A DNA stretch of 64,000 nucleotides from Patescibacteria group bacterium (GTDB lineage Bacteria; Patescibacteriota; Minisyncoccia; UBA6257; 1-14-0-10-40-38). The DNA lies in the NCBI GenBank assembly GCA_038064975.1, contig JBBTRX010000001.1, forward strand, positions 336 through 64,335, written 5' to 3'. How positions within the stretch are numbered: position 1 is the first letter of the stretch; every line of letters starts with the position of its first letter. This document shows positions 2,746 to 43,768 of the stretch, piece after piece. Both the position numbers and the translations under genes were made by a program. The notes beneath the pieces were generated by a model. The model had not been told where the DNA came from, ran no database searches, and saw nothing but the letters and a program-made list of their open reading frames with translations.

Positions 2746-3648
2746 CTATAGTTCCATTCCTCGTAATGCTGCCACACGCTCTTCCACGGGAGGATGCGTC
2801 ATAAATAATTTATGAATAAACGAAGTTTTTTGCTTTCCTTTAAACGGATCATCAATCCAAAGATGCGCTGTTGTGTTCTGCGCCCGAGTAACAGGGGTTG
2901 GATCTGAAGCAATTTTTATAAGTGCATTAGCGAGTCCCTCTGGGTAGCGCGTAAGGAGTGCACCGGAAGCGTCCGCGAGAAGCTCTCGTTTTCGAGAGAT
3001 AGCCAGATGCATAAGTGTCGCCGCAATGGGAGCAAGGAGTGACGCTGCAATCGCAACGATAAGAATCACAGGATTCCCTCCACTTCTATTATCTCTGTTT
3101 CGCATACCTCCAAAAAACGTCATACGCATAAACATATCTCCAAGTATAGAAATAAATCCGACTAAAACAACAACAATAGTAGAAACGAGCATGTCTCTGT
3201 TCCCAATATGAGAGAGCTCGTGTGCAAGCACACCTTCCAATTCATTACGCTCCAAACGCCCTAAGAGTCCGGTCGTAACCGCGATAACGGCGTGTTCCGG
3301 ATCCCTGCCAGTTGCAAAGGCGTTCGGTGATGGATCATTTATGCTATATATCTTTGGCACCGGAAGTCCCGCACCGATACAAAGATTCTCCACGAGAGTA
3401 TAGAGCTCCCGCGCATTCTCTCGCGTCACAGGCTGTGCGCGCGTCATTTTAAGTACGAGTTTATCGGACCACCAATATGCCGCAACATTCATAACGATAC
3501 TGAATACTACTGCAATATAGAGAATCATAGGATCACCGTACGCTTGAGCAAAAATCCATCCTACACCCACAACGACAACCAAAAAAACCGTGAATATAAG
3601 CCACGTTTTACGAATATTTTTTGCTTTATGAGTATAAAGAGAAGCCAT
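2746..3648 (-). CDS. htpX: M48 zinc metalloprotease HtpX
   Basis: HELSH zinc-binding motif, N-terminal transmembrane helices and typical HtpX length. Confidence 0.85.
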   Translation of the reverse strand: MASLYTHKAKNIRKTWLIFTVFLVVVVGVGWIFAQAYGDPMILYIAVVFSIVMNVAAYWWSDKLVLKMTRAQPVTRENARELYTLVENLCIGAGLPVPKIYSINDPSPNAFATGRDPEHAVIAVTTGLLGRLERNELEGVLAHELSHIGNRDMLVSTIVVVLVGFISILGDMFMRMTFFGGMRNRDNRSGGNPVILIVAIAASLLAPIAATLMHLAISRKRELLADASGALLTRYPEGLANALIKIASDPTPVTRAQNTTAHLWIDDPFKGKQKTSFIHKLFMTHPPVEERVAALRGMEL

Positions 3649-3851
3649 AGGGATAGAAGCTAGTATCTAGAAGTTAGTAAGTAGAAGGCAGAGAGTGAAA
3701 AGGAATACTTAATAGACAATAGTTCGTCGCATTTTACTAAACTGCGACGTCTTCGTCGCTCTTCGCTCCTCGAGATGAAGATCGAGGTATTTCGGTTGCG
3801 AAGGATTAGTCATCTTTCTTCGTAACTACTGATTCCTAAATTCTCTTTTTC

Positions 3852-4418
3852 CTAGAATTTCACTTGTACCGGTTCTCTTTGCGATGCGTCTACTACTTCA
3901 AAAAAGTTCTCTTGTTTGAATTTAAACATGCCCGCAATGATGTTTGACGGGAAAGATTCTATCTTCGTGTTTAACTCCTGAACGACAGCGTTGTAAAACC
4001 GGCGTGCCGCTTGGATTTTATTTTCCGTATCAGCAAGCTCTCTCTGGAGTTCAAGAAAATTCGTGTTGGATTTCAAATCAGGATAATTTTCTGAAACAGC
4101 AAACAGTGTCTTCAAGGTTGAAGATAGTGCATTTTCTGCTCCTGCTTTTTCAAGTGCCGTACCTCCGGTCGCCATAGCTTGCGTTCGTGCTTTCGTAACG
4201 CTCTCCAGTACTCCGCTCTCCTGCTTCATGTAGCCCTTCACCGCTTCAACGAGATTCGGAATAAGGTCATATCTACGCTTGGTTTGCACATCAATATCGG
4301 ACTCTGCTTCTTTCTCGCGATTACGCAACGAAATAAGCCGGTTATACGTAGCGATAACGTACAAGATAGCTATTACTACAACTGCCAAAATGGCGTACAA
4401 AAAATATGCGGTATTCAT
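3852..4418 (-). CDS. lemA: LemA family membrane protein
   Basis: N-terminal TM followed by YNRLISLRNREKEAESDIDVQTKRRYDLIPNLVE..., typical LemA. It is adjacent to htpX, as is commonly seen. Confidence 0.8.
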   Translation of the reverse strand: MNTAYFLYAILAVVVIAILYVIATYNRLISLRNREKEAESDIDVQTKRRYDLIPNLVEAVKGYMKQESGVLESVTKARTQAMATGGTALEKAGAENALSSTLKTLFAVSENYPDLKSNTNFLELQRELADTENKIQAARRFYNAVVQELNTKIESFPSNIIAGMFKFKQENFFEVVDASQREPVQVKF

Positions 4419-6552: not shown

Positions 6553-6589
6553 AGTATACGAATGCCTAGCGATCGGTTTTTAATATAAA

Positions 6590-6615: not shown

Positions 6616-6620
6616 TAGGC

Positions 6621-6649
6621 ATTCTAGGGACGAGGAGCCGGCTTGTCAA
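6621..6649 (-). promoter_or_regulatory. sigma70-type promoter for groESL
   Basis: On the minus strand: TTGACA, 17-nt spacer, TAGAAT. CIRCE sits just downstream. Confidence 0.5.
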
Positions 6650-6748
6650 TACTCTAAAAGGTTTTAGCCACTAGGCCTGCCGGCAGGCAGGCAGGGTTTA
6701 GGGAATAGGGGCTAAAAATTTAAAATTCTATTTTCTACTTACTAGCTT

Positions 6749-7447
6749 CTAGATTCTACTCCCCTCGTATTCCTCAATACGACGCGTATCAAGATGGAGT
6801 TCTAATTCATCGTCGCTTACAATAATTCTCGGCTTGTAACCGGCATGAGGAATAAGTCGCTCCTTTATACGTACAACCTGTACTCCTTTCAATTTTCTTT
6901 CAAACCAGTCCCCCAGCGAGCCAGATAATATTCGCTCACTTATTTTTTTGAATGATGAATCGGTTTTGTAGCCATGCCGAAGATCTTCACGATATATCAC
7001 GCCACCTTCTATCCAATCGTTTGCAGCAAAGAATGTTTTAATTTTTTTCTCCGGACCAAATACGGGAACTAAACAGCTGTATAAGGCGTGCCAATACGCA
7101 TCATGCGGAGGCGAAAGCCGATACGAACAGGCGGAAATAAAATGATTAAGACAGAGCGTATCCGCGGCTTCAAAACTATCGTGATCCAGATTCTTTCTCC
7201 GCCGCCCCAACATGTCCAACATAAGAATAGTAATAAAGCGGGCGGTAAACATCCGCCCCTCTCGCACGGAAATAATGACGTCAAAATCTGACTCCGGTTT
7301 CACATTCCCGATTGCCATAGATCCCGCAGCGCATACGAATTCAACAAAAGGAAGAAATCTGAATATATTTGACTGCCGAATAAGCTTCAACCACTTTTTG
7401 TCATACAGTGTTTTCTGCACCAGCGATTCAAAGCCCAACATATACAC
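6749..7447 (-). CDS. hypothetical protein, possible Pol-beta-superfamily nucleotidyltransferase
   Basis: AAGSMAIGNVKPESDFDVII resembles the GS...D.D nucleotidyltransferase motif. Weak. Confidence 0.4.
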   Translation of the reverse strand: MYMLGFESLVQKTLYDKKWLKLIRQSNIFRFLPFVEFVCAAGSMAIGNVKPESDFDVIISVREGRMFTARFITILMLDMLGRRRKNLDHDSFEAADTLCLNHFISACSYRLSPPHDAYWHALYSCLVPVFGPEKKIKTFFAANDWIEGGVIYREDLRHGYKTDSSFKKISERILSGSLGDWFERKLKGVQVVRIKERLIPHAGYKPRIIVSDDELELHLDTRRIEEYEGSRI

Positions 7448-8595: not shown

Positions 8596-8632
8596 CTCCT
8601 CAAGTATACCCGAGACTTCTAGCGGAACAAAT

Positions 8633-10186
8633 TTAGCGGCGACTCCAATACGGTAAACAGTTTTCGCTTCCACATTTTAAGAAATACATAGTATTTTGAC
8701 CACCAACCGTTTGAAGAAACGTTACGACGGGAAGACCGTCCACACCAAGACCAATGGATGCATATTTACCGCCCCCTTCTCCGCCAAGAGATGCAGGTAA
8801 ATCTAATGCCAAAGGCGTGCCATGACTGATGGTACATTCTTTATTGCCACATTTTCGGACATAAAGTGCTTGAGCCGTCTTACTTTGATACGCAATTAAC
8901 GGCAAGCCATCAATGCTGGTAGTAATGGAAGAATATTTACCAACATCGCCTTCTGAGAGTGAACTGACTGTAGAAACTGTAACCAAACTTGGAGTGCAAT
9001 TAATATCTTTACAAGAAAGAAGCATTAAACGTCCATTAGTAGCATGATAAACAGTAATAAGAGGAAACCCATCAGAACCAACAGTAACGGAAGCAAACTC
9101 TCCAACGACCTCATTGAGAGCGTTATTAATAAGCTTATTAGTTACACTACTTGTGCATTCCATATTGGTACATTTTTTAAAATAAATACCTTGTGCGCCA
9201 GCAAGAACGTCATAATAGACGAAATAAGCCGTAAAGAGTAAACCATCCGAACCTAAAGCGAGCTGAGCTCTTGTTCCATTTTTTTCATCTCCCGATGGAA
9301 AACCAGAACCAAGAGTACTAATTGTTACTGGATTAGGAGGATTCTCACAACTTATATTTTCACAAAGAATAAGATAAACTCCTGCAGATGTAGTGCCTCT
9401 TCTGTAAGAGATCGCAGGAAATCCATTAGATTGCGTAGTAATTGAAGTCGGAAGATCTAGGACATTTATAGTATCGAGATCTCTATATGTAGAATTTTTA
9501 CACTCATAATCATAACAAGCATAAAAAATCAATTTAGGACCTGACGCAATACCCGCAATTATGGGATATCCATTTTGACCAATACTAATAGAAACATTTC
9601 CTATTCCCTGCGCAAGATCAAGATCGCTTATAGAAACCGGATTACTACAATCAGGGATAGTACAATGCCCGACTTTAATTCTACCGTCATCAACATAGAC
9701 GAATACCGGCATACCATCCCTACCTATAGTAAGCGCTAAATATCCTCCGGAAATAACTTCTGTTGGGTTGGGTAGACGATAATAAAAATTTTGCGTCGGA
9801 ATCTTAGTATTCGGGAAGAATCGCTGAGATATACCCTCAAGAGTAATACCACCATTAACGCTTAACTTAGCAATAGCAGTAGGTCTTCCAATCGCTACGT
9901 TCCCTTGAGTTAAAAGATTGTTACCGTTAGCAGTGATTCCGATATAAGACGAGCCAATACTTAAAGCTCCTCCAACAGAAAGCGCGCTCTGCGGTTCTTC
10001 TGAATCCGAAAGTGCAATACCTACTTTCGTAGGATCAGTTACACCAGGTTTTAGCCCACCAACTCCAACTCCCGGAAAATTATTGGGATTAACCCACGCA
10101 AAAACTCCGCCCGCAAACAGAATCGCCGCAGACAAAAAAGCGATGGCGAAGATGAATTTGGTATTATGATGCATAAATTTTTCCAT
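8633..10186 (-). CDS. surface repeat protein, paralog 1
   Basis: N-terminal TM/signal, then a Gly-rich beta-helix-like region (SVGGALSIGSSYIGITANGNN). About eight ~40-aa repeats follow, of the form [ST]x[IL]GxDGxPxI.Y...KCxxxxC. C-terminus is CLPYWSRR. Confidence 0.6.
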   Translation of the reverse strand: MEKFMHHNTKFIFAIAFLSAAILFAGGVFAWVNPNNFPGVGVGGLKPGVTDPTKVGIALSDSEEPQSALSVGGALSIGSSYIGITANGNNLLTQGNVAIGRPTAIAKLSVNGGITLEGISQRFFPNTKIPTQNFYYRLPNPTEVISGGYLALTIGRDGMPVFVYVDDGRIKVGHCTIPDCSNPVSISDLDLAQGIGNVSISIGQNGYPIIAGIASGPKLIFYACYDYECKNSTYRDLDTINVLDLPTSITTQSNGFPAISYRRGTTSAGVYLILCENISCENPPNPVTISTLGSGFPSGDEKNGTRAQLALGSDGLLFTAYFVYYDVLAGAQGIYFKKCTNMECTSSVTNKLINNALNEVVGEFASVTVGSDGFPLITVYHATNGRLMLLSCKDINCTPSLVTVSTVSSLSEGDVGKYSSITTSIDGLPLIAYQSKTAQALYVRKCGNKECTISHGTPLALDLPASLGGEGGGKYASIGLGVDGLPVVTFLQTVGGQNTMYFLKCGSENCLPYWSRR

Positions 10187-10190: not shown

Positions 10191-11720
10191 TTATCGTGTC
10201 CAATACGGCAGACACCTATCGCTTCCGCATGTTACGAGCTTAAAACCCCCATCTATACGATATGCGACTATCGGTATGCCATGTGATCCAATAGCGACTG
10301 TTGTTCCAAAATTAATAGCATTACTTTGCTCAAGTTCATAGAGTGTATTTTTACCCGAAGAACAATCAGAGCTTGAGCACACGGCAATACGAGAGGCAAG
10401 CATGGGGTTGAGAGACCCTGCTGTTGAGCTTGCAATATAACTTATGACTGGAAAACCATTTATTCCCAATGTGATAGCATTCCACTCCCCACTATTCCAC
10501 GTCGGAGACATGGTGAAACTATCTACCACATTAGATGTAGACGCCGTACAACTAATATCAAGACATTTTAAGACGCGCAACTCACTCAGCCCTCCCACAC
10601 GCACACCGGTGGAAATAACTGGTAATCCATCCAATCCGATTGTGAGCGAATTATGGTATCCGGAGCCTTTTTCACTTGAACCCATATCTTTAGTTAAAAA
10701 ACTAAGACAATCATAATTGGTATTACACTTTGCAAGACGAAGTCTCTGCGAACCGGTAGTGCTCGCGTAATACGACATAACAGGAAGGCCATCATACCCG
10801 ATACCCATAGAGACTGTACCAAATATGACACCTCCCGGAGGGATATCAAATCCCTCCTGAATAGTGCTTGTTAGACCAAGATCGCTACAACCCGCATCAT
10901 TACATTTTCGAAATACAAGTTTATTGGGTGATCCGGCCCGATAATACGCAAGCACGGGATTGCCCGTCTCCGGACTGATACGTATAGAAGGTGAATATCC
11001 TTCGGGATCTACGATACTTTTAATAGATGTCATGCAAGCGATATCGGAACATTTTGCAACTTTTAATTGAGTATTAAGAGTGATTGGATCAACAAAATTA
11101 TAAGCGAATACAGGGCGATTATCTGAACCAATAACAAGAGAATTATCAGCGCTCGTAAGCGCTCCACTTGCTTCTACCAATGAATCAGTATAAGTAGTAC
11201 ACCGTACGTCGTTGCATTTAACAATACGGAACGCCCCTATTCCCGCCTCTTCGGAGGCATAGTATGCCATTACCGGAAAACCATCCGAACCAATAGTCAT
11301 AGAGATATATCTTCCACCAGTAACATTCAAAAGACTTTCCCCTTCGTTTATTGGAAAGCGAGCGTCCCATGATCCGAATTGGATAGTTCTTCCAATGGCA
11401 ATTGTTCCGTTAAGATTTAATGATCCCTTAATAACAGAAGCTCCCTCCCCTATGCCAGCCTTTCCCTCAACATACATTGTTCCTGGAGGAGCAAAAGTCG
11501 TTGTAGCATAGGACCCTATACTCGCACCTCCCAGGACCGTAAGAGAACTTCCCGAAAGAGAAGTATTAATCCCAATATTGCCTCCTTGCGATCGGAGCAC
11601 TCCTTGTTCTGTAGGCGGGTCTTGAGTTGGACTAATAAAACCAAACGTAAGTCCAGCAAGAAGAATAGCAAAAAAAGCTGCCGCGGAAGTTATATTAATG
11701 AGAATACGATGTTCGTGCAT
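10191..11720 (-). CDS. surface repeat protein, paralog 2
   Basis: Same architecture as paralog 1, C-terminus CLPYWTR. The 88-bp repeat lies directly upstream of its start. Confidence 0.6.
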   Translation of the reverse strand: MHEHRILINITSAAAFFAILLAGLTFGFISPTQDPPTEQGVLRSQGGNIGINTSLSGSSLTVLGGASIGSYATTTFAPPGTMYVEGKAGIGEGASVIKGSLNLNGTIAIGRTIQFGSWDARFPINEGESLLNVTGGRYISMTIGSDGFPVMAYYASEEAGIGAFRIVKCNDVRCTTYTDSLVEASGALTSADNSLVIGSDNRPVFAYNFVDPITLNTQLKVAKCSDIACMTSIKSIVDPEGYSPSIRISPETGNPVLAYYRAGSPNKLVFRKCNDAGCSDLGLTSTIQEGFDIPPGGVIFGTVSMGIGYDGLPVMSYYASTTGSQRLRLAKCNTNYDCLSFLTKDMGSSEKGSGYHNSLTIGLDGLPVISTGVRVGGLSELRVLKCLDISCTASTSNVVDSFTMSPTWNSGEWNAITLGINGFPVISYIASSTAGSLNPMLASRIAVCSSSDCSSGKNTLYELEQSNAINFGTTVAIGSHGIPIVAYRIDGGFKLVTCGSDRCLPYWTR

Positions 11721-11721: not shown

Positions 11722-11809
11722 GGAATAGAATCTAGAAAATAGAATCTAGAAAATAGAAATAAGAAGTGGAAAATAATATTTGTATCATTTGTATATTAGT
11801 ATCGATACA
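11722..11809. repeat. 88-bp repeat, copy 1 (inverted relative to 16277..16364)
   Basis: The reverse complement is 87/88 identical to 16277..16364. It contains tandem tagaatctagaaaa units and ends 1 nt before the paralog-2 start codon. Confidence 0.8.
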
Positions 11810-11831
11810 CAATTTCTTTGTTTATTGCACA

Positions 11832-13439
11832 TTATCTCCGTGTCCAATACGGAACACAAAACTCGCTTCCGCATTGGAAGCTTGTCAGCAATCCGGACCC
11901 GGAAATAGAATTAATAAAACCGACAAGAGGGAGTCCGTGTGAGCCCACAAATACCGCCGCGCCGGGAGCCGCATAAAATTCAGAGGGGGAGAGACCGAAA
12001 TAATCTGCTCCAGTAAGAACCAATCTTGTTTCCTTAAATTCATCGTTACCAGATACATCTTTACCACAAAACTCGTTACCACATCGTATAAAATAAAGAT
12101 TATTATTATCATTTCCTGGATCCGTTGTGGAATAAATCAAGATGGGCGTGCCATGAACACTCGTCGCCGCACGAATTGAAGTAACGCTTACTCCAGAAGA
12201 AAATGTTTTTATCACATCTGTTGATGGTGTAGAACATGAAATATCATCACATTTTGTAACACGTAAAGTCGCATTACCTCCCTCTGACGTATGAAAAATG
12301 AGAGGAGTACCATCACGAGAAATAACAATAGCGTTTAATTTGCCAACAACCGTAATGCCGCTGGATGGCCAATCTAAAGGATCATCTAATTTAACAGGGT
12401 TAGTGGATGCCGAACAATTTGTTGTTCTACATCTGATAAATTTCAATGTATTTCCATCATCTCCATCTTGATACGCAATAATCGGAAAAACATTGATACC
12501 GAGCGTAAATGCAAGATAATCAAACGCACCAGAGATTAACGTAAGATCTTCTTTGCTCGCACAAGCAGGATCATAGCAATGAATAACCTTAATCGGGTTA
12601 CCCGAACCAAGTCGGATTGAAATTATGACAGGATTACCATCCCCTCCAATAATCATATCTGCTGATTGAGTATTAGTATCTACAACAATAGAAGAGTTTG
12701 TAGCACAATTTAAAGAAGTACAAGCCAAGAAACGAGTCGCCGTACTAAAGAGTGATTTATTTTTAATAAGCACTATAGGATAATCACCCGGACCCGGCTT
12801 TGCGCTTAATATTTCAGGTAATTTATTATTTAGCCCCATAAGGGTATATGCGATGACAGGAGAGTCAGCAAGAGAGCAGTCTATTTTGCGACATCGTAGT
12901 GCATATACGTTCTTATCTCCCTCATTAACACCCTGCTCAGCAAGTGTGTAAAAAAAGATTGGCGTTCCATCACGATTAACGGTAAACGCAGATGTTTGGA
13001 CATCGCCAGCAATAAGAAAAGAAGTTACTACATGAGGGAGGGGAACTTTGGCATTTCTATCATAACGCTGTTGAATTCCATCTATCGTAATACCCCCACC
13101 GGAAAGACTAAGGGGTGCTGTTATAGTACTCGTCCCGATACCAAGTGCGACTTCCACATTTAATCCATTTGCTACCGCAGAAAGACTGGCTCCCTGCGAC
13201 GTACTCGCGATAGAAAGAGATCCGTTAATACTCAAAGCATTTAGCGCATTTTCCGTATTAATACCGATAAAGCCATTTGATGCTCTATGAATAGTTCCTG
13301 ATGTATTAGGAGGGCCACCGCCGGGACCATCCCATCCCCTCACAACGCCTGCGATAAGAAGGCCAAGAAAAAGAAAAGAAAAAAGACCAATGAGAATTGA
13401 ATGCCTTTTTTCTGAAAAATTAAATTTAGTATTTTCCAT
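11832..13439 (-). CDS. surface repeat protein, paralog 3
   Basis: Same architecture as paralogs 1 and 2, C-terminus CVPYWTRR. Confidence 0.6.
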   Translation of the reverse strand: MENTKFNFSEKRHSILIGLFSFLFLGLLIAGVVRGWDGPGGGPPNTSGTIHRASNGFIGINTENALNALSINGSLSIASTSQGASLSAVANGLNVEVALGIGTSTITAPLSLSGGGITIDGIQQRYDRNAKVPLPHVVTSFLIAGDVQTSAFTVNRDGTPIFFYTLAEQGVNEGDKNVYALRCRKIDCSLADSPVIAYTLMGLNNKLPEILSAKPGPGDYPIVLIKNKSLFSTATRFLACTSLNCATNSSIVVDTNTQSADMIIGGDGNPVIISIRLGSGNPIKVIHCYDPACASKEDLTLISGAFDYLAFTLGINVFPIIAYQDGDDGNTLKFIRCRTTNCSASTNPVKLDDPLDWPSSGITVVGKLNAIVISRDGTPLIFHTSEGGNATLRVTKCDDISCSTPSTDVIKTFSSGVSVTSIRAATSVHGTPILIYSTTDPGNDNNNLYFIRCGNEFCGKDVSGNDEFKETRLVLTGADYFGLSPSEFYAAPGAAVFVGSHGLPLVGFINSISGSGLLTSFQCGSEFCVPYWTRR

Positions 13440-13530
13440 TGCGCTTGGCTTTGCTGTGCTTTAAACGTTTCTTCAATTATAATTGTCTTTACAGGAGTTA
13501 CCTAAGTTTTGTGTGGATAAGATAAGCGCT

Positions 13531-14916
13531 ATGAAGATATACAACACACTTTCACAGGCAAAGAACATGCTTAAGAAGCCCGAATCAGGCCCCATCCGGC
13601 TTTTTGTATGTGGCCCTACCGTCTACAACGAACTCCATATCGGTAACGCACGTGTATACATTGTCTTTGATGTTTTTGCGCGGTACCTCCGAAGCACAGG
13701 CGCAGCTCTGAGATACGTCCAAAACATTACCGACATTGACGACAAGATAATCGCACGCGCTAAAGAAGAAGACATGAGTCCCAAGCGCCTAGCAGAAAAA
13801 TATACGCGCATATTTAAAGAAGATATGCGATCGCTAAATATCAACTCAGTAGATACGTATGCATCGGCCACAGAATACATTCCGGAAATAATCGCGCAAG
13901 TTGAACGCCTGATTGAAAAAAAACACGCGTACAAAATAACTGGCGATGGTTATTATTTTGATCTCGCTACATTTCCCCATTACGGCAAGCTCGCACACAG
14001 GACAATAGAACAAGCAGAAGATGGAACATCGCGCATTGATGAAAATCCTAACAAACGAAACAAGGGAGATTTCTGTGTGTGGAAATTTTCACGCGAAGGA
14101 GAACCAAGTTGGCAAGCGCCCTTCGGCATCGGACGACCGGGTTGGCATATTGAGGACACCGCAATTTCGGAAAAACATTTCGGTCCGCAGTATGAGATAC
14201 ACGGTGGAGGCATTGATCTAAAATTTCCGCATCACGAAGCAGAAATCGCCCAGCAAGAATCCGCTTCCGGCAAACGCCCATTTGTACAACTCTGGATGCA
14301 TACCGGATTGCTCACGGTGCGTGGAAAAAAAATGAGTAAGAGCGGCGGCAATTTTATTACCATTCGGCAATTTCTAAACGACCATAGCGCGAATAGTTTG
14401 CGTCTTACGGTCTTACAAAACCATTATCGTTCCTCAGTTGATTACACAGAAGAATCCGCTCTCGGAGCCGAAACCGCGTGGAGATCGTTTATTCAGCATA
14501 TTGAAAAATTAAGAATGCAATCAAGATTTTCCAGCACCGGCACCGCCCTCTTTCCTCTCCAGACATATGACGAGCGTTTTACAAGCGCAATGGAAGACGA
14601 CCTGAATACCCCAGAAGCAATCGCCACTCTCTTTAGCGCAATGCACGATATGCAAGCCGGCCTCTGGCGTATCTCTCCCAAAAGCGCGGGTGAAGCAAGG
14701 CGCTGGTTTATGAGAAAATTAACTCTCCTCGGCTTTACGCGCCTTAAGCACCCCGTTTCCATTTTCGCCCGCATTTTGGCATGGCGACGGGAGTTATTCA
14801 GGCGTCGTAAACACTTTATCCAGTCAGACATCTTGCGCGCTCACGTTGAGCGGCTAGGATATACCATAGAGGACACGCCGCGAGGCCCGCTCATCTTGCC
14901 TCAGCGTTTGCAGTAA
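13531..14916 (+). CDS. cysS: cysteinyl-tRNA synthetase
   Basis: HIGH (HIGN) and KMSKS motifs. Start set at the ATG of MKIYNTL. Confidence 0.9.
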   Translation: MKIYNTLSQAKNMLKKPESGPIRLFVCGPTVYNELHIGNARVYIVFDVFARYLRSTGAALRYVQNITDIDDKIIARAKEEDMSPKRLAEKYTRIFKEDMRSLNINSVDTYASATEYIPEIIAQVERLIEKKHAYKITGDGYYFDLATFPHYGKLAHRTIEQAEDGTSRIDENPNKRNKGDFCVWKFSREGEPSWQAPFGIGRPGWHIEDTAISEKHFGPQYEIHGGGIDLKFPHHEAEIAQQESASGKRPFVQLWMHTGLLTVRGKKMSKSGGNFITIRQFLNDHSANSLRLTVLQNHYRSSVDYTEESALGAETAWRSFIQHIEKLRMQSRFSSTGTALFPLQTYDERFTSAMEDDLNTPEAIATLFSAMHDMQAGLWRISPKSAGEARRWFMRKLTLLGFTRLKHPVSIFARILAWRRELFRRRKHFIQSDILRAHVERLGYTIEDTPRGPLILPQRLQ

Positions 14917-14921
14917 GACAC

Positions 14922-16268
14922 ATGAACCCAAAGATTCCCCCACAAAATATAGAAGCAGAAACTTCTATCTTAGGAGCGCTAATGTTAGACAAAGAAGCGA
15001 TTGTAAAAATCGCCGACGTGCTCCACGCATCAGATTTTTATAAGCCGACACATTCCACGCTCTACTCCACCATCCTTTCCCTCTACGAGCGCCATGAGCC
15101 GATTGATGTCGTAAGTGTAACTGCACGACTCAAAGCTTCGGAACAACTAGAATCTATCGGCGGATCATCGTATCTCGCCCAGCTCGTAACTTCCGTGCCA
15201 ACGTCTTCGCACGTTGCCCATTATGCGAAACTCGTACGCGAGAAAAAAATTCTCCGTGATCTTATTAATGTATCCGCAGAGATTACAGAAAACGCGTTCC
15301 GCCCTGAAGATGATTTAGAAAATGTTCTGGACGATGTTGAACAAAAAGTCTTCGCAATTTCTCAACGATCCATCTCGCAGAAATTCAGCGCCGTCAAAGA
15401 CGAACTCGGTGCCGCATACGAACGTATTGAAAAATTGCATCGCGGCGAAGGGTTGATTCGCGGCGTACCAACAGGATTTAAAGATGTAGATAATATTCTT
15501 TCAGGATTCCAACGTTCCGATTTGGTTATTCTCGGTGCCCGTCCGTCGCTCGGAAAAACATCGTTCGCGCTTGATATCGCACGCCACGTGGCCATGAAAC
15601 AAAAAGAGCCGGTTGGATTTTTCTCACTAGAAATGTCCCGGGAACAAGTCGTAGACCGCCTTATTTCCGCTGAAGCACAAGTTCCGCTCTGGAAATTACG
15701 CACGGGGCGCCTTTCAGATAAAACAGATTTTGAACTTATCCAACATGCGCTAGACACCCTTTCTCGCGCGCCATTCTTTATTGACGACACGCCATCCCCC
15801 AACATTCTACAAATGCGCTCTATGGCACGAAGATTGCAATCAGAGCATGGGCTTTCCCTGCTTGTTGTTGATTATCTCCAGCTTATTATGCCGCGTACCA
15901 ATTCCGATAACATGGTCCAGCAAATTACCGAAATCTCGCGTGGACTCAAAGGCTTGGCACGCGAACTCAATGTCCCCGTGCTCGCACTCTCACAACTTTC
16001 GCGTGCCGTTGATCAACGCGAAATAAAAGTTCCCCGCCTCTCTGATTTGCGCGAATCAGGATCTATTGAACAAGACGCGGATGTCGTTATGTTTATCTAT
16101 CGTAAAGATCGTGACAAAACAACCGTCCTACCCGAAGAAGAAAATCAGGCAGAAATCATTGTAGCAAAACACCGCAACGGCCCCTTGGGAACAGTACGCC
16201 TACGCTTTGATCAAGAGAAAGCAAGCTTCCAGACGATTGATAGGGCGCATGTAACAGAGGAAATATAA
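14922..16268 (+). CDS. dnaB: replicative DNA helicase DnaB
   Basis: DnaB N-terminal domain plus a RecA-like domain with Walker A (GARPSLGKTSF). Confidence 0.9.
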   Translation: MNPKIPPQNIEAETSILGALMLDKEAIVKIADVLHASDFYKPTHSTLYSTILSLYERHEPIDVVSVTARLKASEQLESIGGSSYLAQLVTSVPTSSHVAHYAKLVREKKILRDLINVSAEITENAFRPEDDLENVLDDVEQKVFAISQRSISQKFSAVKDELGAAYERIEKLHRGEGLIRGVPTGFKDVDNILSGFQRSDLVILGARPSLGKTSFALDIARHVAMKQKEPVGFFSLEMSREQVVDRLISAEAQVPLWKLRTGRLSDKTDFELIQHALDTLSRAPFFIDDTPSPNILQMRSMARRLQSEHGLSLLVVDYLQLIMPRTNSDNMVQQITEISRGLKGLARELNVPVLALSQLSRAVDQREIKVPRLSDLRESGSIEQDADVVMFIYRKDRDKTTVLPEEENQAEIIVAKHRNGPLGTVRLRFDQEKASFQTIDRAHVTEEI

Positions 16269-16276
16269 TAGCTTAC

Positions 16277-16364
16277 TGTATCGATACTAATATACAAATG
16301 ATACAAATATTATTTTTCACTTCTTATTTCTATTTTCTAGATTCTATTTTCTAGATTCTATTCC
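16277..16364. repeat. 88-bp repeat, copy 2, immediately upstream of the recR ATG
   Basis: See 11722..11809. It ends exactly at the recR start codon. Confidence 0.8.
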
Positions 16365-16976
16365 ATGTTCCCTCGCCCTATTCAAAAATTTATTGACGCG
16401 TTCTCCGCGCTTCCCTCTATAGGCCCACGCCAAGCAACACGGCTTGCTTTTCATATTCTGAAATTAGGAAAAGCATCAATACAAGAATTAACCGATGCAG
16501 TGGCAAGTCTCGGCACTATACAGACGTGTTCCCGATGTTTTGTCCCCTATGAAGCAAATCTGGCTGCTTCAGAAATAACACTCTGCTGGATCTGCTCCAA
16601 TAAAGAGCGGAACCAATCCATCATTGCGATTGTAGAAAAACCGACCGATCTTATCGCACTTGAGAAAACAAAGAAGTATAAAGGGCGCTATCTTGTTCTG
16701 GGAGAGCTAGATCGCGACGGCATTTTGGACACAGAACAAAAACTGCGGATCGCTAATGTAAAGCGGACTATTGAAAAAGAATTTGGCATGGCGGAAGAAA
16801 TTCTGATCGCATTAAACCCTACAACCCTGGGCGATATTGATTCCGCTCTTATCATGCAGGAATTAAAACCAATCGCAAAAAAAATAACACGCCTCGGAAG
16901 AGGCCTGCCTACGGGAGGAGAAATAGAATTTGCCGATGACGAAACGCTCTCCGGTGCTCTTGATGGAAGAAGGTGA
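16365..16976 (+). CDS. recR: recombination protein RecR
   Basis: HhH, a C4 zinc finger (CSRC...CWIC) and a Toprim domain. Confidence 0.9.
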   Translation: MFPRPIQKFIDAFSALPSIGPRQATRLAFHILKLGKASIQELTDAVASLGTIQTCSRCFVPYEANLAASEITLCWICSNKERNQSIIAIVEKPTDLIALEKTKKYKGRYLVLGELDRDGILDTEQKLRIANVKRTIEKEFGMAEEILIALNPTTLGDIDSALIMQELKPIAKKITRLGRGLPTGGEIEFADDETLSGALDGRR

Positions 16977-17082
16977 GGATACGGGGTAGAGGGTATGGCC
17001 ACTAGCCAATAGAATTGAGATAAAAAAGAACGCCTCCGAAAGGCGACTCTTTTTTATTTTCACTCCTCAACTGATCAACTCG

Positions 17083-17403
17083 TTAACTGTTTTTGATTCC
17101 CGTAATTTCTACTTCAGTAAACGGTTGGCGATGGCCTTTCTTTTTCTTATATCTCGTCTTGGAGTGATACTTAAATACTATCTTTTTCTCATCCCGGCCT
17201 TGCATAAGGACTTTTCCAGCAACCGTAGCGCCTTTTACGCGCGGATCACCTATAACAACGTCATCACCGTTTACGACGAGTAAAACCGAATCAAAAGAGA
17301 CCTGAGATCCAGTTTCAGCTTCAAGCTTTTCAATTTTTATTTTTGAGCCGGATTCAACGCGATATTGCTTACCTCCCGTCTCAATGACTGCGAATGTTTT
17401 CAT
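17083..17403 (-). CDS. rplU: 50S ribosomal protein L21
   Basis: MKTFAVIETGGKQYRV... is classic L21. Confidence 0.9.
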   Translation of the reverse strand: MKTFAVIETGGKQYRVESGSKIKIEKLEAETGSQVSFDSVLLVVNGDDVVIGDPRVKGATVAGKVLMQGRDEKKIVFKYHSKTRYKKKKGHRQPFTEVEITGIKNS

Positions 17404-23630: not shown

Positions 23631-23712
23631 TGCGGTTACGGGTTTTTGAATTTTTGTATATTGTAAGGAATAAACTCTTCAACTCATCAACTGATCAACT
23701 CATTAACTATTC

Positions 23713-33359: not shown

Positions 33360-34049
33360 TTAAAATCCCAATTTACCGAGCGCGTTCCGCGCCGCTTCTA
33401 TTTCCGCATCCTGTTTGGACATACCGCTCCCTTCTGCCATAAGTTCATCACCAAAATATGCTCCGACGGTAAATAATTTCGCGTGATCAGGGCCTGTTTC
33501 TTTCAGCACGTGGTACGTAGGGGTAACTTTCTTTTCTTCCTGCACCTTTTCTTGGAGTACACTCTTCGGATCTTTATATAATTTTCTCCTCATAACTTCA
33601 TCCAACCGAGCCATAATTGTCTTATCAACAAAATATTTTGCCGCAGCATACCCGCCATCTAAATGGAGCGCGCCAATAACCGACTCCATCGCATTTGCAA
33701 CAATCACTTCTCTTCCCCGCCCCATGTCTTTTGCCTCTCCGCGGGAAAGTAAAATATGAGCGTCCATGCCGATTGATTTTCCTACGTCCGCCATCATTTG
33801 ATAGTTAACCAGTGCAGAACGGATCGGCGTCATCTGACCTTCGGTATAATCCGGATAGCGATAAAAAAGTTCTTCGGTAACGATAAGCTCTAAAACCGCG
33901 TCACCTAAAAATTCCAGTCGCTCATTATGCGCCTTTGATCGCGAAACATCTTCGTTTAAATAGGAACGGTGAGTCACCGCTTCCTCGAGAAGTGCTTTGT
34001 CTTTAAATTTGTGCCCGAGTATCGCCTCTAATCCTGCGAACTTCATCAT
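33360..34049 (-). CDS. rnc: ribonuclease III
   Basis: ERLEFLGDAVLELIV signature plus a C-terminal dsRBD. Confidence 0.9.
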   Translation of the reverse strand: MMKFAGLEAILGHKFKDKALLEEAVTHRSYLNEDVSRSKAHNERLEFLGDAVLELIVTEELFYRYPDYTEGQMTPIRSALVNYQMMADVGKSIGMDAHILLSRGEAKDMGRGREVIVANAMESVIGALHLDGGYAAAKYFVDKTIMARLDEVMRRKLYKDPKSVLQEKVQEEKKVTPTYHVLKETGPDHAKLFTVGAYFGDELMAEGSGMSKQDAEIEAARNALGKLGF

Positions 34050-34796: not shown

Positions 34797-35012
34797 ACGA
34801 TTCAGTAGCTAGTATCTAGAAAATAGAATCTAGCAGAAAAATTAGAAATTTCCGCTTCGAGCGGAAGTTAATGATACTAGAGAAGAATAAAGTAATGCGG
34901 CTTGTATGTCAATAAATAGAGCCTCGCGTATGCGAGGCTCTCTGACTCTGGGATGACATCAACTCCCGTTACTCCCTAACGACTGAGGACCTCTTGTATT
35001 GTCTGCGACTAT

Positions 35013-40385: not shown

Positions 40386-41381
40386 TTAATAATTCTGTAA
40401 CGAAAACTGCTCAATCTCTTGTTTTAATTTTTGAGTATTACCGTGATTCATGAGACCAAGATACGACAGCACAACTTCATTTTTACCTTTAGTATTTTCA
40501 AGATTTCTAAACATGCGTTTCTTCGTGGCAGATCGAAGCACTCTATGATCAGGGAAGTGTATCCATCCCAGAAAATCAATGCCTGATGCGAACGTCTGCA
40601 AAGAAACTTTATCGGGATGAAGCGTTAGTTTCAATTCCTCCAAAAGAAACGCATGTACGCTTCGGAGCGTGGTTTCAAGCCATGCTTTGTCCGCCGAGAG
40701 AATAACGAAATCATCCGCATAGCGAATATAGTATTTTGCCTTAATCTTGTGTTTCATAAACTGATCAAAAATGTTCATATAAATATTCACGAATAATTGC
40801 GAGGTGAGATTGCCAAGAGGAAGTCCGCGCCCCCGCTCCCCCATGTAGAAACTTCCCACGATTGCCGAGATAAGTCGCAGTATATTTTTTTCTGGAATGT
40901 GCACAAGCATAATCCGCATAAGAATTTCCTGATCGATAGACGCGAAGAATTTACGTATATCACATTTCAGTACCCATGCCGTTTGCATATGATTTTTGGA
41001 AACAATATGCGCATATGACCGGAATTTAGCAATCGCTTTATGCGTTCCTTTTCTCTTCCGACACGAATATGAATCAGCAATAAATCTCCGGTCAAAGAAT
41101 GGATAAAGTACGCGATAGATCGCGCGGTGAAGCAGGCGGTCGCGCACGCTCGCTTTATGGATATTTCTTGGCTTCGGATCAGAAATATTAAACGCCTCAT
41201 ATTCCGAGTGGCGATATATATGTGCGGCAAGATCGCCGTGCAACGCAAAAATATTACTCATAAGATTCAACTCAAATTTCTGCACATCCATGCGGTTACG
41301 CTTGCCGACGATAAATTCCTGCCAGGCGGCGAGGAGATTTTCAACGGAAATGATATGCTCGTAAGTATGGATAAATTTCAT
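40386..41381 (-). CDS. diversity-generating retroelement (DGR) reverse transcriptase
   Basis: RT motifs FASIDQEIL, LPLGNLTSQLFVNIYM (the IGxxxSQ-type signature diagnostic of DGR RTs, as opposed to QGxxxSP of group II introns), YADD, and GIDFLGW. The N-terminus is the conserved DGR-RT type (...ISVENLLAAWQEFIVGKRNRMDVQKFE...). Start trimmed to MKFIHTYE; the track's longer ORF begins at a GTG inside a poly-C tract. Confidence 0.85.
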   Translation of the reverse strand: MKFIHTYEHIISVENLLAAWQEFIVGKRNRMDVQKFELNLMSNIFALHGDLAAHIYRHSEYEAFNISDPKPRNIHKASVRDRLLHRAIYRVLYPFFDRRFIADSYSCRKRKGTHKAIAKFRSYAHIVSKNHMQTAWVLKCDIRKFFASIDQEILMRIMLVHIPEKNILRLISAIVGSFYMGERGRGLPLGNLTSQLFVNIYMNIFDQFMKHKIKAKYYIRYADDFVILSADKAWLETTLRSVHAFLLEELKLTLHPDKVSLQTFASGIDFLGWIHFPDHRVLRSATKKRMFRNLENTKGKNEVVLSYLGLMNHGNTQKLKQEIEQFSLQNY

Positions 41382-41394
41382 AATACAAGAGATC

Positions 41395-41772
41395 TTGGAA
41401 GTCCCCCCCCCCACGGCTTTACTGCCTGTTTTACAGCAAGTGAAAAGTGCTTACCTTCTCTGGTATGAATACTATCAGATACTTCCGAAACTCCATCGGC
41501 ATACGCTTGGTGAGCGGATTGATAGGTTATTTATAGAGATTATTGAAAACATATCATTCGCGAGTTTTCTCTCACGCGAAGAAAAACAACCCTACGTACG
41601 TGTAGCCATAAGGAAAGTTGATGCGTTAAAAATTCTTCTCATGGTACTTTGGGAAACAAAATCACTTGATAACAAAAAATATATTGCGGTTTCTCTAAAA
41701 ATAGAGGTGATAGGAAAAATGCTTGGAGGCTGGAATGGCCACCTTATAAAACAAAACTCTCCCAAGAAATAG
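41395..41772 (+). CDS. avd: Avd-like accessory variability determinant (four-helix-bundle, IVS-protein-like)
   Basis: 125-aa helical protein ending ...LKIEVIGKMLGGW, typical of the four-helix-bundle/Avd family. It lies between the RT and TR but diverges from the RT. Codons 3-6 span a C10 homopolymer. Confidence 0.55.
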   Translation: MEVPPPTALLPVLQQVKSAYLLWYEYYQILPKLHRHTLGERIDRLFIEIIENISFASFLSREEKQPYVRVAIRKVDALKILLMVLWETKSLDNKKYIAVSLKIEVIGKMLGGWNGHLIKQNSPKK

Positions 41773-42308: not shown

Positions 42309-42899
42309 CTAGGCACGCAGAGCCGCAGGATCCTGACCGTCCCAGCCGTCGTCGAGCCAGCGGCAGCTCCAGTCCCACCTGCCTCCGTCCCAGTACAGGT
42401 ACCGGACACCCAGGTTGCCGTTCGAGTGGCGGTAGATGGTTCCCCAGAAGAAGGTGTAGCGAGTGCGACCCTTGTCGTCCTGCTTCCAGTCTTCCGGGAT
42501 GAGGTACGGATGCGCGAGGAGGTAATCAAGGACGCAGGCATTCAATACCGGCTGCCCTTGAAGTTGCTTGCGAAGTTCCGTCCCTCGGATCGTCTTGCCT
42601 TCCTTCTGTGGGTCAGAGAGGAAGAGATTCACCTTCGCAGGATCCCATTTCCACTGACCACCCTTCTGGTGATCTTCGATCTTCCAGCCATCAGGGATCA
42701 TCGGGTCCACGTCACAGTCCACGACATGGTCCACAATCCTGATTTCGGCATTGCCGAGCTGGACTTGGAGCAACTGTTTGAAGAGATCGGGCCGTTCTGC
42801 GAGAGCGTTCATGAGCTCCGGAGTGTAACCCTGCCCTTCTGCGACGAGACAGACCTTGTGAGCCAACCCTACGATGGAAAACGCGGACTTCGCCGGCAT
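42309..42899 (-). CDS. DGR target (variable) protein, probable C-type-lectin-fold; VR occupies the last ~40 codons
   Basis: 196 aa. C-terminus is ...YTFFWGTIYRHSNGNLGVRYLYWDGGRWDWSCRWLDDGWDGQDPAALRA, a Trp/Gly-rich pattern typical of CLec-fold variable proteins. GC-rich relative to the flanks. Confidence 0.75.
   Translation of the reverse strand: MPAKSAFSIVGLAHKVCLVAEGQGYTPELMNALAERPDLFKQLLQVQLGNAEIRIVDHVVDCDVDPMIPDGWKIEDHQKGGQWKWDPAKVNLFLSDPQKEGKTIRGTELRKQLQGQPVLNACVLDYLLAHPYLIPEDWKQDDKGRTRYTFFWGTIYRHSNGNLGVRYLYWDGGRWDWSCRWLDDGWDGQDPAALRA
42313..42434 (-). repeat. DGR variable repeat (VR) at the 3' end of the target gene
   Basis: See the TR entry. There are 14-15 substitutions and all are at TR-adenine positions. 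The GC-rich 3' boundary ctgcggctctgcgtgc is shared with TR (IMH-like). Confidence 0.8.
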
Positions 42900-43183: not shown

Positions 43184-43768
43184 CTAAGAGGCAGTTACTT
43201 GTCCCTTCTTATCCACCTTCACGCGTTTCGTTTTTCCCCCACCCAAGCGAAGCTCTGAAGTGGTTTCGGAGGGTCTCACGAAGAAGTATTCTGATCCCTT
43301 GCTCACACTGACATGTTCCAAGCCAGCTACAGCTTCGGGCTCTTGAAGAATGCGCTCCTTGTTAATCTCCTCCGCCGCCGGACGGATAAATCTACGTAAT
43401 CCGGCTTCTTTCAATTCTGTAATCGCCTCTTCAGAAGTACCTTTGATCTTCACGCTCGGAGGATTCGTCCTGAACCCAACCATAGCGATCGCAAGATCAA
43501 CTGACTTCCGATCAGCCGGCAAAATTTCGTCTCTATGCATCTTTGCGTACGCGGCGAGACTGCGGGCATTCTGTTCAGCTTGTTGGGCAATTCTTTCAAT
43601 ATCCAATTCCGTTTTTACCATAAGCGCCGTGATCACTTCTTCACGCTTGGATTCTATGGCTTCAATATTGCGCAGTTCAGCGCAGAGCAGAGACAATGCC
43701 CTAGTAAACTCATGATTGTCTTGCAATTCAGGAATAGTAGGTTTCTTTTCGGCTTTCTTCTTTGCCAC
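43184..43768 (-). CDS. phage Mu Gam-like host-nuclease inhibitor / DNA end-binding protein
   Basis: RTNPPSVKIKGTSEEAITELKEAGLRRFIRPAAEEINKERILQEPEAVAGL closely parallels the Mu Gam core (RPPSVSIRGMDAVMETLERLGLQRFIRTKQEINKEAILLEPKAVAG). Confidence 0.7.
   Translation of the reverse strand: MAKKKAEKKPTIPELQDNHEFTRALSLLCAELRNIEAIESKREEVITALMVKTELDIERIAQQAEQNARSLAAYAKMHRDEILPADRKSVDLAIAMVGFRTNPPSVKIKGTSEEAITELKEAGLRRFIRPAAEEINKERILQEPEAVAGLEHVSVSKGSEYFFVRPSETTSELRLGGGKTKRVKVDKKGQVTAS

What the first reader, a model, noticed from the sequence alone, without database searches (positions are those of the whole stretch)
11722..16364. 88-bp inverted repeats supply an identical 5' leader to paralog 2 and to recR, bracketing a 4.5-kb segment (paralog 3, cysS, dnaB)
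11722..11809 is the reverse complement of 16277..16364 with 87/88 identity. Each copy ends 0-1 nt before a start codon, that of surface paralog 2 on the minus strand and that of recR on the plus strand. Two unrelated genes therefore share the same ~90-nt promoter/5'UTR module in opposite orientation. The module contains tandem tagaatctagaaaa units and no obvious SD. The repeats are inverted and bracket a segment, so they are a substrate for recombinational inversion. Inversion would swap which genes sit behind each leader. Alternatively this is a dispersed promoter cassette.
Basis: seen in the sequence. Interest (0 to 1): 0.55.

Follow-up and report, generated by a model that had tools for sequence, protein, structure and literature searches.

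The report
Duplicated gene-leader cassette, not a switch
Two unrelated genes on opposite strands of a groundwater ultra-small (CPR) bacterium carry the same 88-base stretch directly before their start codons; it is a recently copied "leader" built from short repeated words found across this bacterial group, and nothing indicates a DNA-flipping switch.

Summary
11722-11809 is the reverse complement of 16277-16364 (87/88), and each copy ends 1 or 0 nt before the ATG of paralog 2 (-) or recR (+). The inversion reading does not hold. Both leaders and their genes lie outside the bracketed segment, so a flip would exchange only the upstream genes. No recombinase is encoded in the 64 kb. Four relatives keep cysS-dnaB-recR in the assembled order, and no alternative arrangement was listed among the long contigs.

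The module is two tandem arrays: (GATACAAAT)x3 and five heptads of TTCTA+NN. A 20-mer from the heptad array has 75 exact hits in GTDB genomes (about 1 expected), 68 of them in CPR-named MAGs. Such arrays are strand-specific. Read in gene sense, the pyrimidine form sits 5-8 nt before SD-less start codons, and its complement abuts stop codons. They occur inside groESL and ribosomal-protein operons, which argues against a promoter role.

The best reading is a recently duplicated intercistronic leader cassette (leader reuse) whose start-proximal half probably supports SD-independent translation initiation. The mechanism is inferred, not shown. I found no published description of the CPR-wide heptad element.

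The parts
11722..11809 (-). Module copy A. It reads 5'->3' on the minus strand towards paralog 2 and fills most of the 111-nt gap between the paralog 3 stop (11832) and the paralog 2 ATG (11720).
16277..16364 (+). Module copy B. It fills most of the 96-nt gap between the dnaB stop (16268) and the recR ATG (16365).
11724..11759 (-). Start-proximal heptad array of copy A: (TTCTA+NN) x5 in gene sense. The last TTCT lies 6 nt before the ATG.
   Evidence: TRF
16327..16362 (+). Start-proximal heptad array of copy B. The last TTCT lies 5 nt before the ATG. It contains the CPR-wide 20-mer CTAGATTCTATTTTCTAGAT.
   Evidence: TRF
11778..11803 (-). Distal 9-nt array of copy A, (GATACAAAT)x3, followed by the palindrome GTATCGATAC (11799-11808).
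   Evidence: related 5' arms in other CPR metagenome contigs
16283..16308 (+). Distal 9-nt array of copy B. The palindrome GTATCGATAC is at 16278-16287.
10191..11720 (-). Paralog 2 (509 aa): membrane-anchored, Cys-rich repeat protein, no Pfam hit. This is the gene behind copy A.
16365..16976 (+). recR, the gene behind copy B.
11810..16276 (.). Bracketed 4467-nt segment: paralog 3 (11832..13439 -), cysS (13483/13531..14916 +) and dnaB (14922..16268 +). Its orientation matches the synteny conserved in relatives.
3649..3700 (-). Diverged heptad array directly before the ATG of the htpX-like Peptidase_M48 gene (2746..3648 -).
34797..34841 (-). Diverged heptad array before the ATG of rpmF (L32, 34623..34796 -). 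It contains the same 20-mer.
6726..6762 (-). Same array family in its purine form (TAGAA heptads in gene sense) at the 3' end of gene 6749..7447(-). The gene's stop codon is one of the array's TAGs.

Best explanation
The 88-bp 'inverted repeat' is one intercistronic leader cassette present twice, placed directly 5' of two unrelated genes that happen to lie on opposite strands. Its near identity (87/88) covers a distal half that is not conserved elsewhere. That marks a recent intragenomic duplication or gene conversion ('promoter/leader reuse'), not an ancient shared signal. The cassette is made of two tandem word arrays. The start-proximal one, (TTCTA+NN)x5, belongs to a family found across Patescibacteria/CPR. 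Read in gene sense, the pyrimidine form ends 5-8 nt before start codons that lack a Shine-Dalgarno sequence. Its complement, (NN+TAGAA)n, sits at or just after stop codons, and when both are present they can pair into a long imperfect hairpin. Because these arrays occur between genes of universally co-transcribed operons, the array most likely acts on the mRNA. I infer that it is a G-poor, unstructured, SD-independent translation-initiation leader for the downstream cistron. Shown: anatomy, duplication, distribution, spacing, strand bias and operon context. Inferred: the translation role, and what recognises the TTCTA heptad. The inverted geometry is incidental.
For: Identity and sharp borders of the repeat. 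Two-array anatomy. Both copies lie between co-directional genes, with no terminator or sigma-70-like site inside them. Four of the five arrays in the window sit immediately before an ATG in gene sense. The 20-mer CTAGATTCTATTTTCTAGAT has 75 exact hits in 596 Gb of GTDB genomes, against about 1 expected for a random 20-mer; 68 are in CPR-named MAGs and none in viral contigs. The distance from the last TTCT to the start codon peaks at 5-8 nt (40 of 72 arrays, mode 6), the same spacing as SD cores in this window's SD-led genes. The heptad is an invariant TTCTA plus 2 variable nt. Strand asymmetry: the pyrimidine form lies within 25 nt upstream of a start in 52 cases and after a stop in 13; the purine form lies after a stop in 43 and before a start in 4. 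Arrays sit at groES->groEL, S3->L16, S5->L15 (three genomes) and L4->L23 junctions. Array-led genes have 0 % SD versus 12 %, weaker folding around the start (-5.1 versus -7.8 kcal/mol, p=0.03) and 6.7 % versus 18 % G. The module RNA is essentially unstructured (z -1.2 and -1.9). Other CPR genomes share only 27-68 nt between their copies, so 88 nt at 99 % is a recent copy. The paralogs are old duplicates, so the module did not ride on a gene duplication. The dnaB-recR spacer of relatives is not homologous to the module.
Against: There are no transcript, TSS or ribosome data, so the translation role is inference from position and context. SD usage is low throughout these genomes, so 'replaces SD' is weak evidence. 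Lack of structure alone would not conserve TTCTA at a 7-nt period; the recognising factor is unknown. About half of the CPR copies have the start-proximal array buried in a strong hairpin (mean MFE -31 kcal/mol), which fits processing, coupling or termination as well as initiation. A -10-like TAGATT lies 7-8 nt before each ATG, so a leaderless-promoter role is not excluded. The rest of this genome could not be searched, so the copy number of the full 88-nt module is unknown. Start codons in the survey were called crudely (first start codon of long ORFs).
Confidence: 0.6

Rival explanations
1. Mobile promoter cassette producing leaderless or near-leaderless mRNAs. The last TAGATT (a TANNNT -10-like hexamer) lies 7-8 nt before each ATG, and the upstream heptads supply weak -35-like TTCTAG boxes. 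The cassette would give recR and paralog 2 their own identical promoter.
For: TAGATT lies at a gap of 7 nt (recR) and 8 nt (paralog 2). The last heptad across CPR copies is always TA-NN-TTCT, i.e. TANNNT with a variable interior. A few non-array genes in the window have good -10 boxes at the same distance: TGcTATAAT+8+ATG at 3852..4418, TATACT+8 at 60487, TATCAT+6 at 56977. In some CPR loci the array directly follows a terminator-like GC hairpin.
Against: The module has no sigma-70-like match of at least 9/12. The best array-derived combination is about 6-7/12 by my reading, whereas real promoters here are canonical (groES TTGACA-N17-TAGAAT 11/12; L21 TTGATT-N17-TATTAT). Arrays sit at internal junctions of groESL and the S10/spc r-protein operons, where promoters are not expected. 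There is no genome-wide TANNNT peak before starts in this window beyond the arrays themselves.
Confidence: 0.2
2. Recombinational inversion switch. The 88-bp arms recombine and flip 11810-16276, changing expression.
For: 88 bp of 99 % identity in inverted orientation is a possible RecA substrate. k=31 assemblies cannot resolve the orientation.
Against: Geometry: both leaders and their genes lie outside the segment, so the leader-gene pairing cannot change. The segment carries the essential genes cysS and dnaB. The order cysS-dnaB-recR...L21(-)...murE is conserved in four relatives. For every look-up, the other long contigs were collapsed under the reference arrangement and no second arrangement was listed. 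No tyrosine or serine recombinase, invertase or transposase gene lies in the 64 kb. The two copies still differ by 1 SNP and a 1-nt offset.
Confidence: 0.04
3. Functionless or selfish repeat. Word arrays arise by replication slippage or spread like REP/REPIN/MITE elements in repair-poor, AT-rich CPR genomes, and the 88-bp pair is one recent copy event that is merely tolerated between genes.
For: Every relative builds its intergenic spacers from its own repeated words in tandem and inverted order: AATTAG/CTAATT, CGAAT/ATTCG, AACTGATAAC/GTTATTAGTTA. The window has several such families. Single genomes carry many copies, for example 8 exact 20-mer hits in one Falkowbacteria MAG. Two-arm copies are hairpins like REPINs.
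Against: Neutral filler does not predict the sharp 5-8-nt spacing to start codons (not piling up at 0) or the 52:4 / 43:13 strand asymmetry. The TTCTA core is conserved across CPR classes. The module has no terminal inverted repeats and no evident target-site duplication. There is no transposase or RAYT-like gene in the window and no plasmid or phage match.
Confidence: 0.12

Closest known systems
Putative mobile promoters / promoter reuse (Nijveen, Matus-Garcia & van Passel 2012, PMC3575422)
   Same: Highly similar non-coding sequence (at least 80 % over at least 50 nt) upstream of non-paralogous genes in one genome. Most families are pairs, and the means of spread is unknown. The authors themselves note that some such sequences may be post-transcriptional elements rather than promoters.
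   Different: The module reaches the start codon (-88..-1), whereas PMPs were defined in -150..-50. It lies between co-directional genes, so a promoter is not required. It is built of tandem word arrays that belong to phylum-wide families.
REP / BIME / REPIN extragenic repeats
   Same: Short, genome-specific intergenic repeats, often in inverted pairs that form hairpins inside operons. The two-arm CPR elements look similar.
   Different: The module itself is single-armed and unstructured. The arrays are tandem heptads rather than a palindromic unit. They have a fixed spacing to start and stop codons and a strict strand rule. No RAYT transposase was seen.
SD-independent initiation through unstructured or pyrimidine-rich leaders (non-SD genes, S1-dependent leaders; Bacteroidetes/cyanobacterial type; e.g. 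PMC5397173, PMC3155529 by title and abstract only)
   Same: No SD, low G, weak local structure around the start, and a position directly 5' of the AUG.
   Different: Here a specific 5-nt core (UUCUA) recurs with a 7-nt period, with a complementary array at stop codons. No such periodic motif is described for those systems, as far as I could search.
Invertible promoter switches (fimS, hin, gut 'invertons') - from general knowledge
   Same: Inverted repeats bracketing a DNA segment.
   Different: The segment is 4.5 kb of housekeeping genes. The regulatory sequence is the repeat itself and stays attached to genes outside the segment. There is no recombinase, and only one orientation is seen.
Intercistronic RNase III processing hairpins (phage T7 early mRNA) and hairpin-gated translational coupling - from general knowledge
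   Same: The two-arm CPR elements are hairpins of 25-35 bp with internal mismatches between cistrons, whose 3' arm ends a few nt before the next AUG. This genome encodes RNase III (33360..34049).
   Different: Not applicable to this module, which has no 5' partner arm. Cleavage and coupling are untested.

Membership tests
Putative mobile promoter (PMP) | At least 80 % identity over at least 50 nt between upstream regions within one genome | tested here: met
   87/88 identity
Putative mobile promoter (PMP) | Downstream coding sequences are not paralogous | tested here: met
   RecR domains versus a Pfam-less membrane protein. Identity stops at the ATG.
Putative mobile promoter (PMP) | The similarity lies in -150..-50, and that window is free of flanking coding sequence (operational filter in PMC3575422) | tested here: not met
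   Only -88..-50 (about 39 nt) of the module falls in that window. The upstream genes end 96 and 111 nt before the ATGs.
Putative mobile promoter (PMP) | Promoter activity | not testable with these tools
   No consensus site in the module. No transcript data.
Invertible DNA switch (inverton) | Inverted repeats flank the segment | tested here: met
Invertible DNA switch (inverton) | Dedicated site-specific recombinase nearby | tested here: not met
   No recombinase, invertase or transposase Pfam hit on any called gene of the contig
Invertible DNA switch (inverton) | Both orientations present in the population | tested here: inconclusive
   Other long contigs were collapsed under the reference arrangement and no second arrangement was listed. 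k=31 contigs break in the repeat. Raw reads were not available.
Invertible DNA switch (inverton) | Inversion changes which gene is driven by the regulatory sequence | tested here: not met
   Leaders and their genes lie outside 11810-16276. Orientation is conserved in relatives.
MITE / Correia-like element | Terminal inverted repeats and a target-site duplication | tested here: not met
   The ends are TGTATCGATAC... and ...GATTCTATTCC, and the flanks are unrelated
REP/REPIN | The unit folds into an imperfect hairpin | tested here: not met
   Module z-scores are -1.2 and -1.9, with only a 6-bp UCUAGA stem. The feature is met for 38 of 72 two-arm CPR copies.
Shine-Dalgarno RBS | Purine-rich complement of CCUCC 5-10 nt before the start | tested here: not met
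   No GGAG/GAGG/AGGA before either ATG. The anti-SD is canonical where seen (L074: GATCACCTCCTTTCTA).
Leaderless-mRNA promoter | TANNNT hexamer about 6-9 nt before the start codon | tested here: met
   TAGATT at a gap of 7 and 8 nt
Leaderless-mRNA promoter | Found at the first gene of a transcription unit, with -35 or extended -10 support | tested here: not met
   No site of at least 9/12. The same array occurs at intra-operon junctions.
Curated structured RNA (Rfam 15) | Match at the gathering score | tested here: not met
   Only tRNAs and rRNA were found. The permissive scan gave only a 15.6-bit chance hit.

The most novel reading that the evidence does not exclude
Patescibacteria/CPR mark cistron boundaries with a strand-specific, 7-nt-periodic RNA signal that I did not find described. 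(UUCUA+NN)n lies 5-8 nt before SD-less start codons, and its complement (NN+UAGAA)n lies at stop codons. The complement matches the CUUUCUA 3' tail of 16S rRNA. The two halves often pair into an intercistronic hairpin. Together they would form a lineage-wide system for SD-independent initiation or termination-coupled re-initiation, recognised by an unknown factor. The 88-bp module would be a recently copied unit of that system.
Probability: 0.3. Interest if true: 0.75.

Novelty: new variant of a known kind. Interest (0 to 1): 0.5.

Why it matters
The 88-bp pair on its own is an ordinary case of leader or promoter reuse, and it removes a false lead (a phase-variation switch around dnaB). What it exposes is more useful. 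CPR bacteria are uncultured, use few SD sequences, and their expression signals are essentially uncharted. A conserved, strand-specific, periodic motif locked to start and stop codons, present even inside ribosomal-protein and groESL operons, gives a concrete and testable handle. It bears on how these reduced cells start translation or punctuate polycistronic mRNAs. It is also a practical feature for improving start-codon calling in CPR MAGs.

Tried and rejected
1. Structured RNA or riboswitch. Rfam gathering and permissive scans found nothing, and the folding z-scores are weak.
2. Mobile-element origin. No plasmid or phage BLAST match, no viral-contig match to the 20-mer, and no TIR or TSD.
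3. Heptad pairing with the 16S anti-SD tail. The one 16S 3' end available (L074) shows that the pyrimidine heptads resemble that tail rather than complement it. Only the purine form is complementary, and the window has several unrelated word families, so a single rRNA-pairing rule cannot explain them all. This is left as a lead.
4. RNase III excision-stem idea from arrays next to 16S insertions. The L030 insertion has an array only at its 3' edge, so I dropped it.
5. CTAG enrichment as a protein-binding clue. CTAG occurs at 3.8/kb in intergenic DNA versus 0.66/kb in coding DNA, but this is expected because TAG is a stop codon.
6. Further full copies of the module. The distal 25-mer had 0 hits in metagenome contigs. 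A 23-mer containing the palindrome gave 7 hits, which are 5' arms of a different two-arm word family and not the module. The window's own genome is not in the GTDB representative set, so a genome-wide count was impossible.
7. Literature. No paper contains the motif strings, and none links Patescibacteria to unusual RBS or promoter signals.
8. Inverted arrangement. Look-ups of recR, paralog 3, dnaB and paralog 2 returned no alternative arrangement.
Full report
**Observation.** The repeat is exactly as described. Arms 11722-11809 and 16277-16364 are 88 nt long, 99 % complementary and 4467 nt apart. Direct comparison gives 87/88 identity, with identity collapsing immediately outside both ends. 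Copy B ends at 16364, directly against the recR ATG at 16365. Copy A is separated from the paralog-2 ATG (A at 11720) by one base. Sub-patterns of the module never occurred in 100 shuffles of the window. The repeat is real in the underlying reads. Independent k=31 Logan assemblies of four sequencing runs are 100 % identical to the window. They break exactly 30 nt (k-1) inside each arm, and one contig (L081, 4527 nt) is the 4467-nt segment plus 30 nt at each side.

**Source and gene context.** The window is an ENA Hainich groundwater contig (well H51, 0.1-um fraction). NCBI names its proteins as belonging to a 'Patescibacteria group bacterium' MAG. Copy A lies between the stop of paralog 3 (11832..13439, -) and the start of paralog 2 (10191..11720, -). 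Copy B lies between the stop of dnaB (14922..16268, +) and the start of recR (16365..16976, +). Both copies therefore sit between co-directional genes and point at the downstream gene. The three paralogs are only 28-30 % identical. Each has an N-terminal membrane anchor, repeated C-x4-C modules and a conserved C-terminal CGSExC(L/V)PYWTRR. Distant homologues sometimes carry SLH or prepilin-type domains. 'Surface protein' is plausible, but the gene duplication is old and cannot have carried the module with it.

**Anatomy.** TRF resolves the module into two adjacent tandem arrays. The distal half holds (GATACAAAT)x3, preceded by the palindrome GTATCGATAC. The start-proximal half holds a 7-nt unit x5.1, equivalent to a 14-nt super-unit x2.5 at 100 % match. 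As RNA the module is essentially unstructured. Its z-scores are -1.2 and -1.9, and the only stem is a 6-bp UCUAGA/UCUAGA pairing. No Rfam family matches it. It contains no SD core and no sigma-70-like or terminator-like site. Canonical promoters do exist elsewhere in the window. One is groES, TTGACA-N17-TAGAAT (11/12), followed by a CIRCE-like operator. The other is the L21 gene, TTGATT-N17-TATTAT.

**The inversion idea.** Paralog 2 and recR lie outside the bracketed segment and are directly abutted by the repeats. Recombination between the arms would leave each gene behind the same leader and would exchange only what lies upstream (paralog 3 versus cysS-dnaB).

The evidence also points away from inversion:
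- Four relatives with RecR 60-67 % identical all keep cysS -> dnaB -> recR ... L21(-) ... murE-PBP, so the assembled orientation is the ancestral one.
- The look-up shows contigs with mostly the same neighbouring genes only once. For recR, paralog 3, dnaB and paralog 2, the other long contigs were collapsed under the reference arrangement, and no second arrangement was listed.
- No called gene of the contig has a recombinase, invertase or transposase domain.
- The segment carries cysS and dnaB.

Rare RecA-mediated flips cannot be excluded without the reads, but nothing suggests a switch.

**A wider motif family.** The window contains five arrays of the TTCTA heptad. Four of them sit immediately before an ATG in gene sense: paralog 2, recR, rpmF (L32) and an htpX-like M48 peptidase. 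A 20-mer from inside the module, CTAGATTCTATTTTCTAGAT, has 75 exact matches in one genome per GTDB species (596 Gb). A random 20-mer would be expected about once. Of these hits, 68 carry CPR lineage names: Staskawicz-, Falkow-, Yanofsky-, Azam-, Wolfe-, Komeili-, Jorgensen-, Harrison- and Magasanik-bacteria, Paceibacteria, Minisyncoccia and 'Saccharibacteria' TPA bins. There are none in viral contigs. None of the hits is the window's own genome.

**Properties of the arrays.** I surveyed 583 kb of these loci plus the window.
- The heptad is an invariant TTCTA plus two variable bases.
- The distance from the last TTCT to the next start codon is sharply peaked at 5-8 nt (11, 18, 5 and 6 cases; 40 of the 72 arrays that have a start within 60 nt). 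That is the same spacing as SD cores in the window's SD-led genes.
- The arrays are strongly strand-specific. Read in gene sense, the pyrimidine form lies within 25 nt upstream of a start in 52 of 125 arrays and after a stop in only 13. The purine form (NN+TAGAA)n follows a stop in 43 and precedes a start in only 4. In 19 of the 43 the array's own TAG is the stop codon.
- In 38 of 72 copies both forms occupy one intergenic spacer and can pair into a long imperfect hairpin (mean MFE -31 kcal/mol). The other 34, like this module, have the pyrimidine array alone.
- Arrays sit at groES->groEL, rpsC->rplP, rpsE->rplO (three genomes) and rplD->rplW junctions. These are positions inside operons that are co-transcribed throughout bacteria.
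- Array-led genes have no SD (0 % versus 12 %). They fold more weakly around the start (-5.1 versus -7.8 kcal/mol, p=0.03) and have a G-poor leader (6.7 % versus 18 % G).

**Reading of these properties.** A DNA-level, strand-symmetric role is excluded by the asymmetry. A promoter role is disfavoured by the intra-operon positions and the poor match to the organism's own promoter consensus. It is not excluded, because a TANNNT hexamer (TAGATT) lies 7-8 nt before each ATG. A few other genes in the window have good -10 boxes at that distance. The most economical reading is that the start-proximal array acts on the mRNA as an SD-independent translation-initiation leader for the downstream cistron. 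What reads the UUCUA heptad is unknown. In the two-arm version, unmasking by the terminating ribosome or RNase III processing are further possibilities; the genome encodes RNase III. The purine heptad UAGAAAG is complementary to the CUUUCUA 3' tail of the one 16S end I could see (L074). I record this only as a lead, because several unrelated word families coexist in one genome.

**The distal half.** The distal half of the module belongs to a second word family. In other groundwater CPR contigs, including another Hainich H51 contig, GTATCGATAC-TAATATACAAATGA... forms the 5' arm of a two-arm hairpin that closes with ...ATCGATAC. The module is thus a composite of two CPR-type arrays.

**Origin of the 88-bp pair.** In seven other CPR genomes with several copies, pairwise identity around the 20-mer extends only 27-68 nt. 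Here it extends 88 nt at 99 % and includes the distal half, which is otherwise unique in the window and whose proximal 25-mer has no match in the metagenome collection. The dnaB-recR spacers of relatives (62-224 nt) are not homologous to the module. Each is instead built from that genome's own words. The pair is therefore a recent intragenomic duplication or gene conversion of a whole leader. The concept matches the 'putative mobile promoters / promoter reuse' of Nijveen et al. (PMC3575422). Their operational window (-150..-50, free of flanking CDS) would have missed it. Which copy is the donor, and whether a third copy exists elsewhere in the genome, could not be determined.

**Verdict.** 'Shared leader' is right, and 'dispersed cassette' is close. 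'Inversion substrate that swaps genes' is wrong in geometry and has no supporting evidence. The pair itself is a new instance of a known phenomenon. The CPR-wide, strand-specific heptad arrays it belongs to appear undescribed in the literature I could search, and they are the part worth following up.

Noticed in passing
window 40386-42900: Diversity-generating retroelement: a reverse transcriptase (RVT_1, 40386..41414 -), a bAvd accessory gene (~41440-41772 +), and a 121-nt direct repeat pair at 41793-41913 / 42313-42433 (88 % identical) that looks like a template/variable repeat pair. The second copy lies inside ORF 42309..42899(-). A Mu Gam-like gene follows at 43184..43768.
   Followed up: partly
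window 6553-6649 (- strand): The groES promoter TTGACA-N17-TAGAAT (11/12) is followed by a CIRCE-like inverted repeat, TTAGCACTC-N9-GAGTGCCAT. This indicates HrcA-type heat-shock control in this CPR organism.
   Followed up: partly
window 4495, 17061-17114, 23673-23734, 28678-28739, 38563-38628: A second dispersed intergenic word family (AACTCATCAACTGATCAACT-like, 8-nt period). One copy sits directly before the thrS ATG at 38607. Other small word arrays are CGAAT at 4443, GTCCC at 38524 and TAAAG/AAGTA at 7433.
   Followed up: partly
L084, L088, L090 (recR loci of relatives): Each related genome builds its intergenic leaders from its own short words, in tandem and inverted order: AACTGATAAC/GTTATTAGTTA, CGAAT/ATTCG, AATTAG/CTAATT. 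The same word recurs at several junctions of one genome. This looks like a general, unexplained property of these CPR genomes.
   Followed up: partly
L092-L098 (metagenome contigs, incl. Hainich H51 R1): The module's distal half matches the 5' arm of another two-arm hairpin family: GTATCGATAC-TAATATACAAATGAATACTAATTATACAAAT ... ATTCGTATTATTAGTAAATTCGTATATTCGCATCGATAC.
   Followed up: partly
window 6726-6762: A purine-sense heptad array at the 3' end of gene 6749..7447(-). The gene's stop codon is one of the array's TAGs, as in 19 of 43 stop-adjacent arrays in other CPR genomes.
   Followed up: yes
window 7531-8673: An RmuC-family gene lies immediately downstream of the paralog cluster. From memory, E. 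coli rmuC limits inversions at short inverted repeats. This is probably coincidental.
   Followed up: no
L030:124-1093: A ~970-nt insertion in a CPR 16S rRNA gene (between ...GGATT and GTAGATACCC, near E. coli position ~790) ends with a TTCTA heptad array 9 nt before the 16S sequence resumes. There is no matching purine array at its 5' edge.
   Followed up: partly
L062:21-125: A purine-sense heptad array lies 13 nt after the 3' end of a tRNA gene, so the stop-side form is not strictly tied to protein-coding genes.
   Followed up: no
window ~125-793 (contig start): A 222-aa ORF with a weak LAGLIDADG_3 (homing endonuclease) hit lies near the contig end.
   Followed up: no
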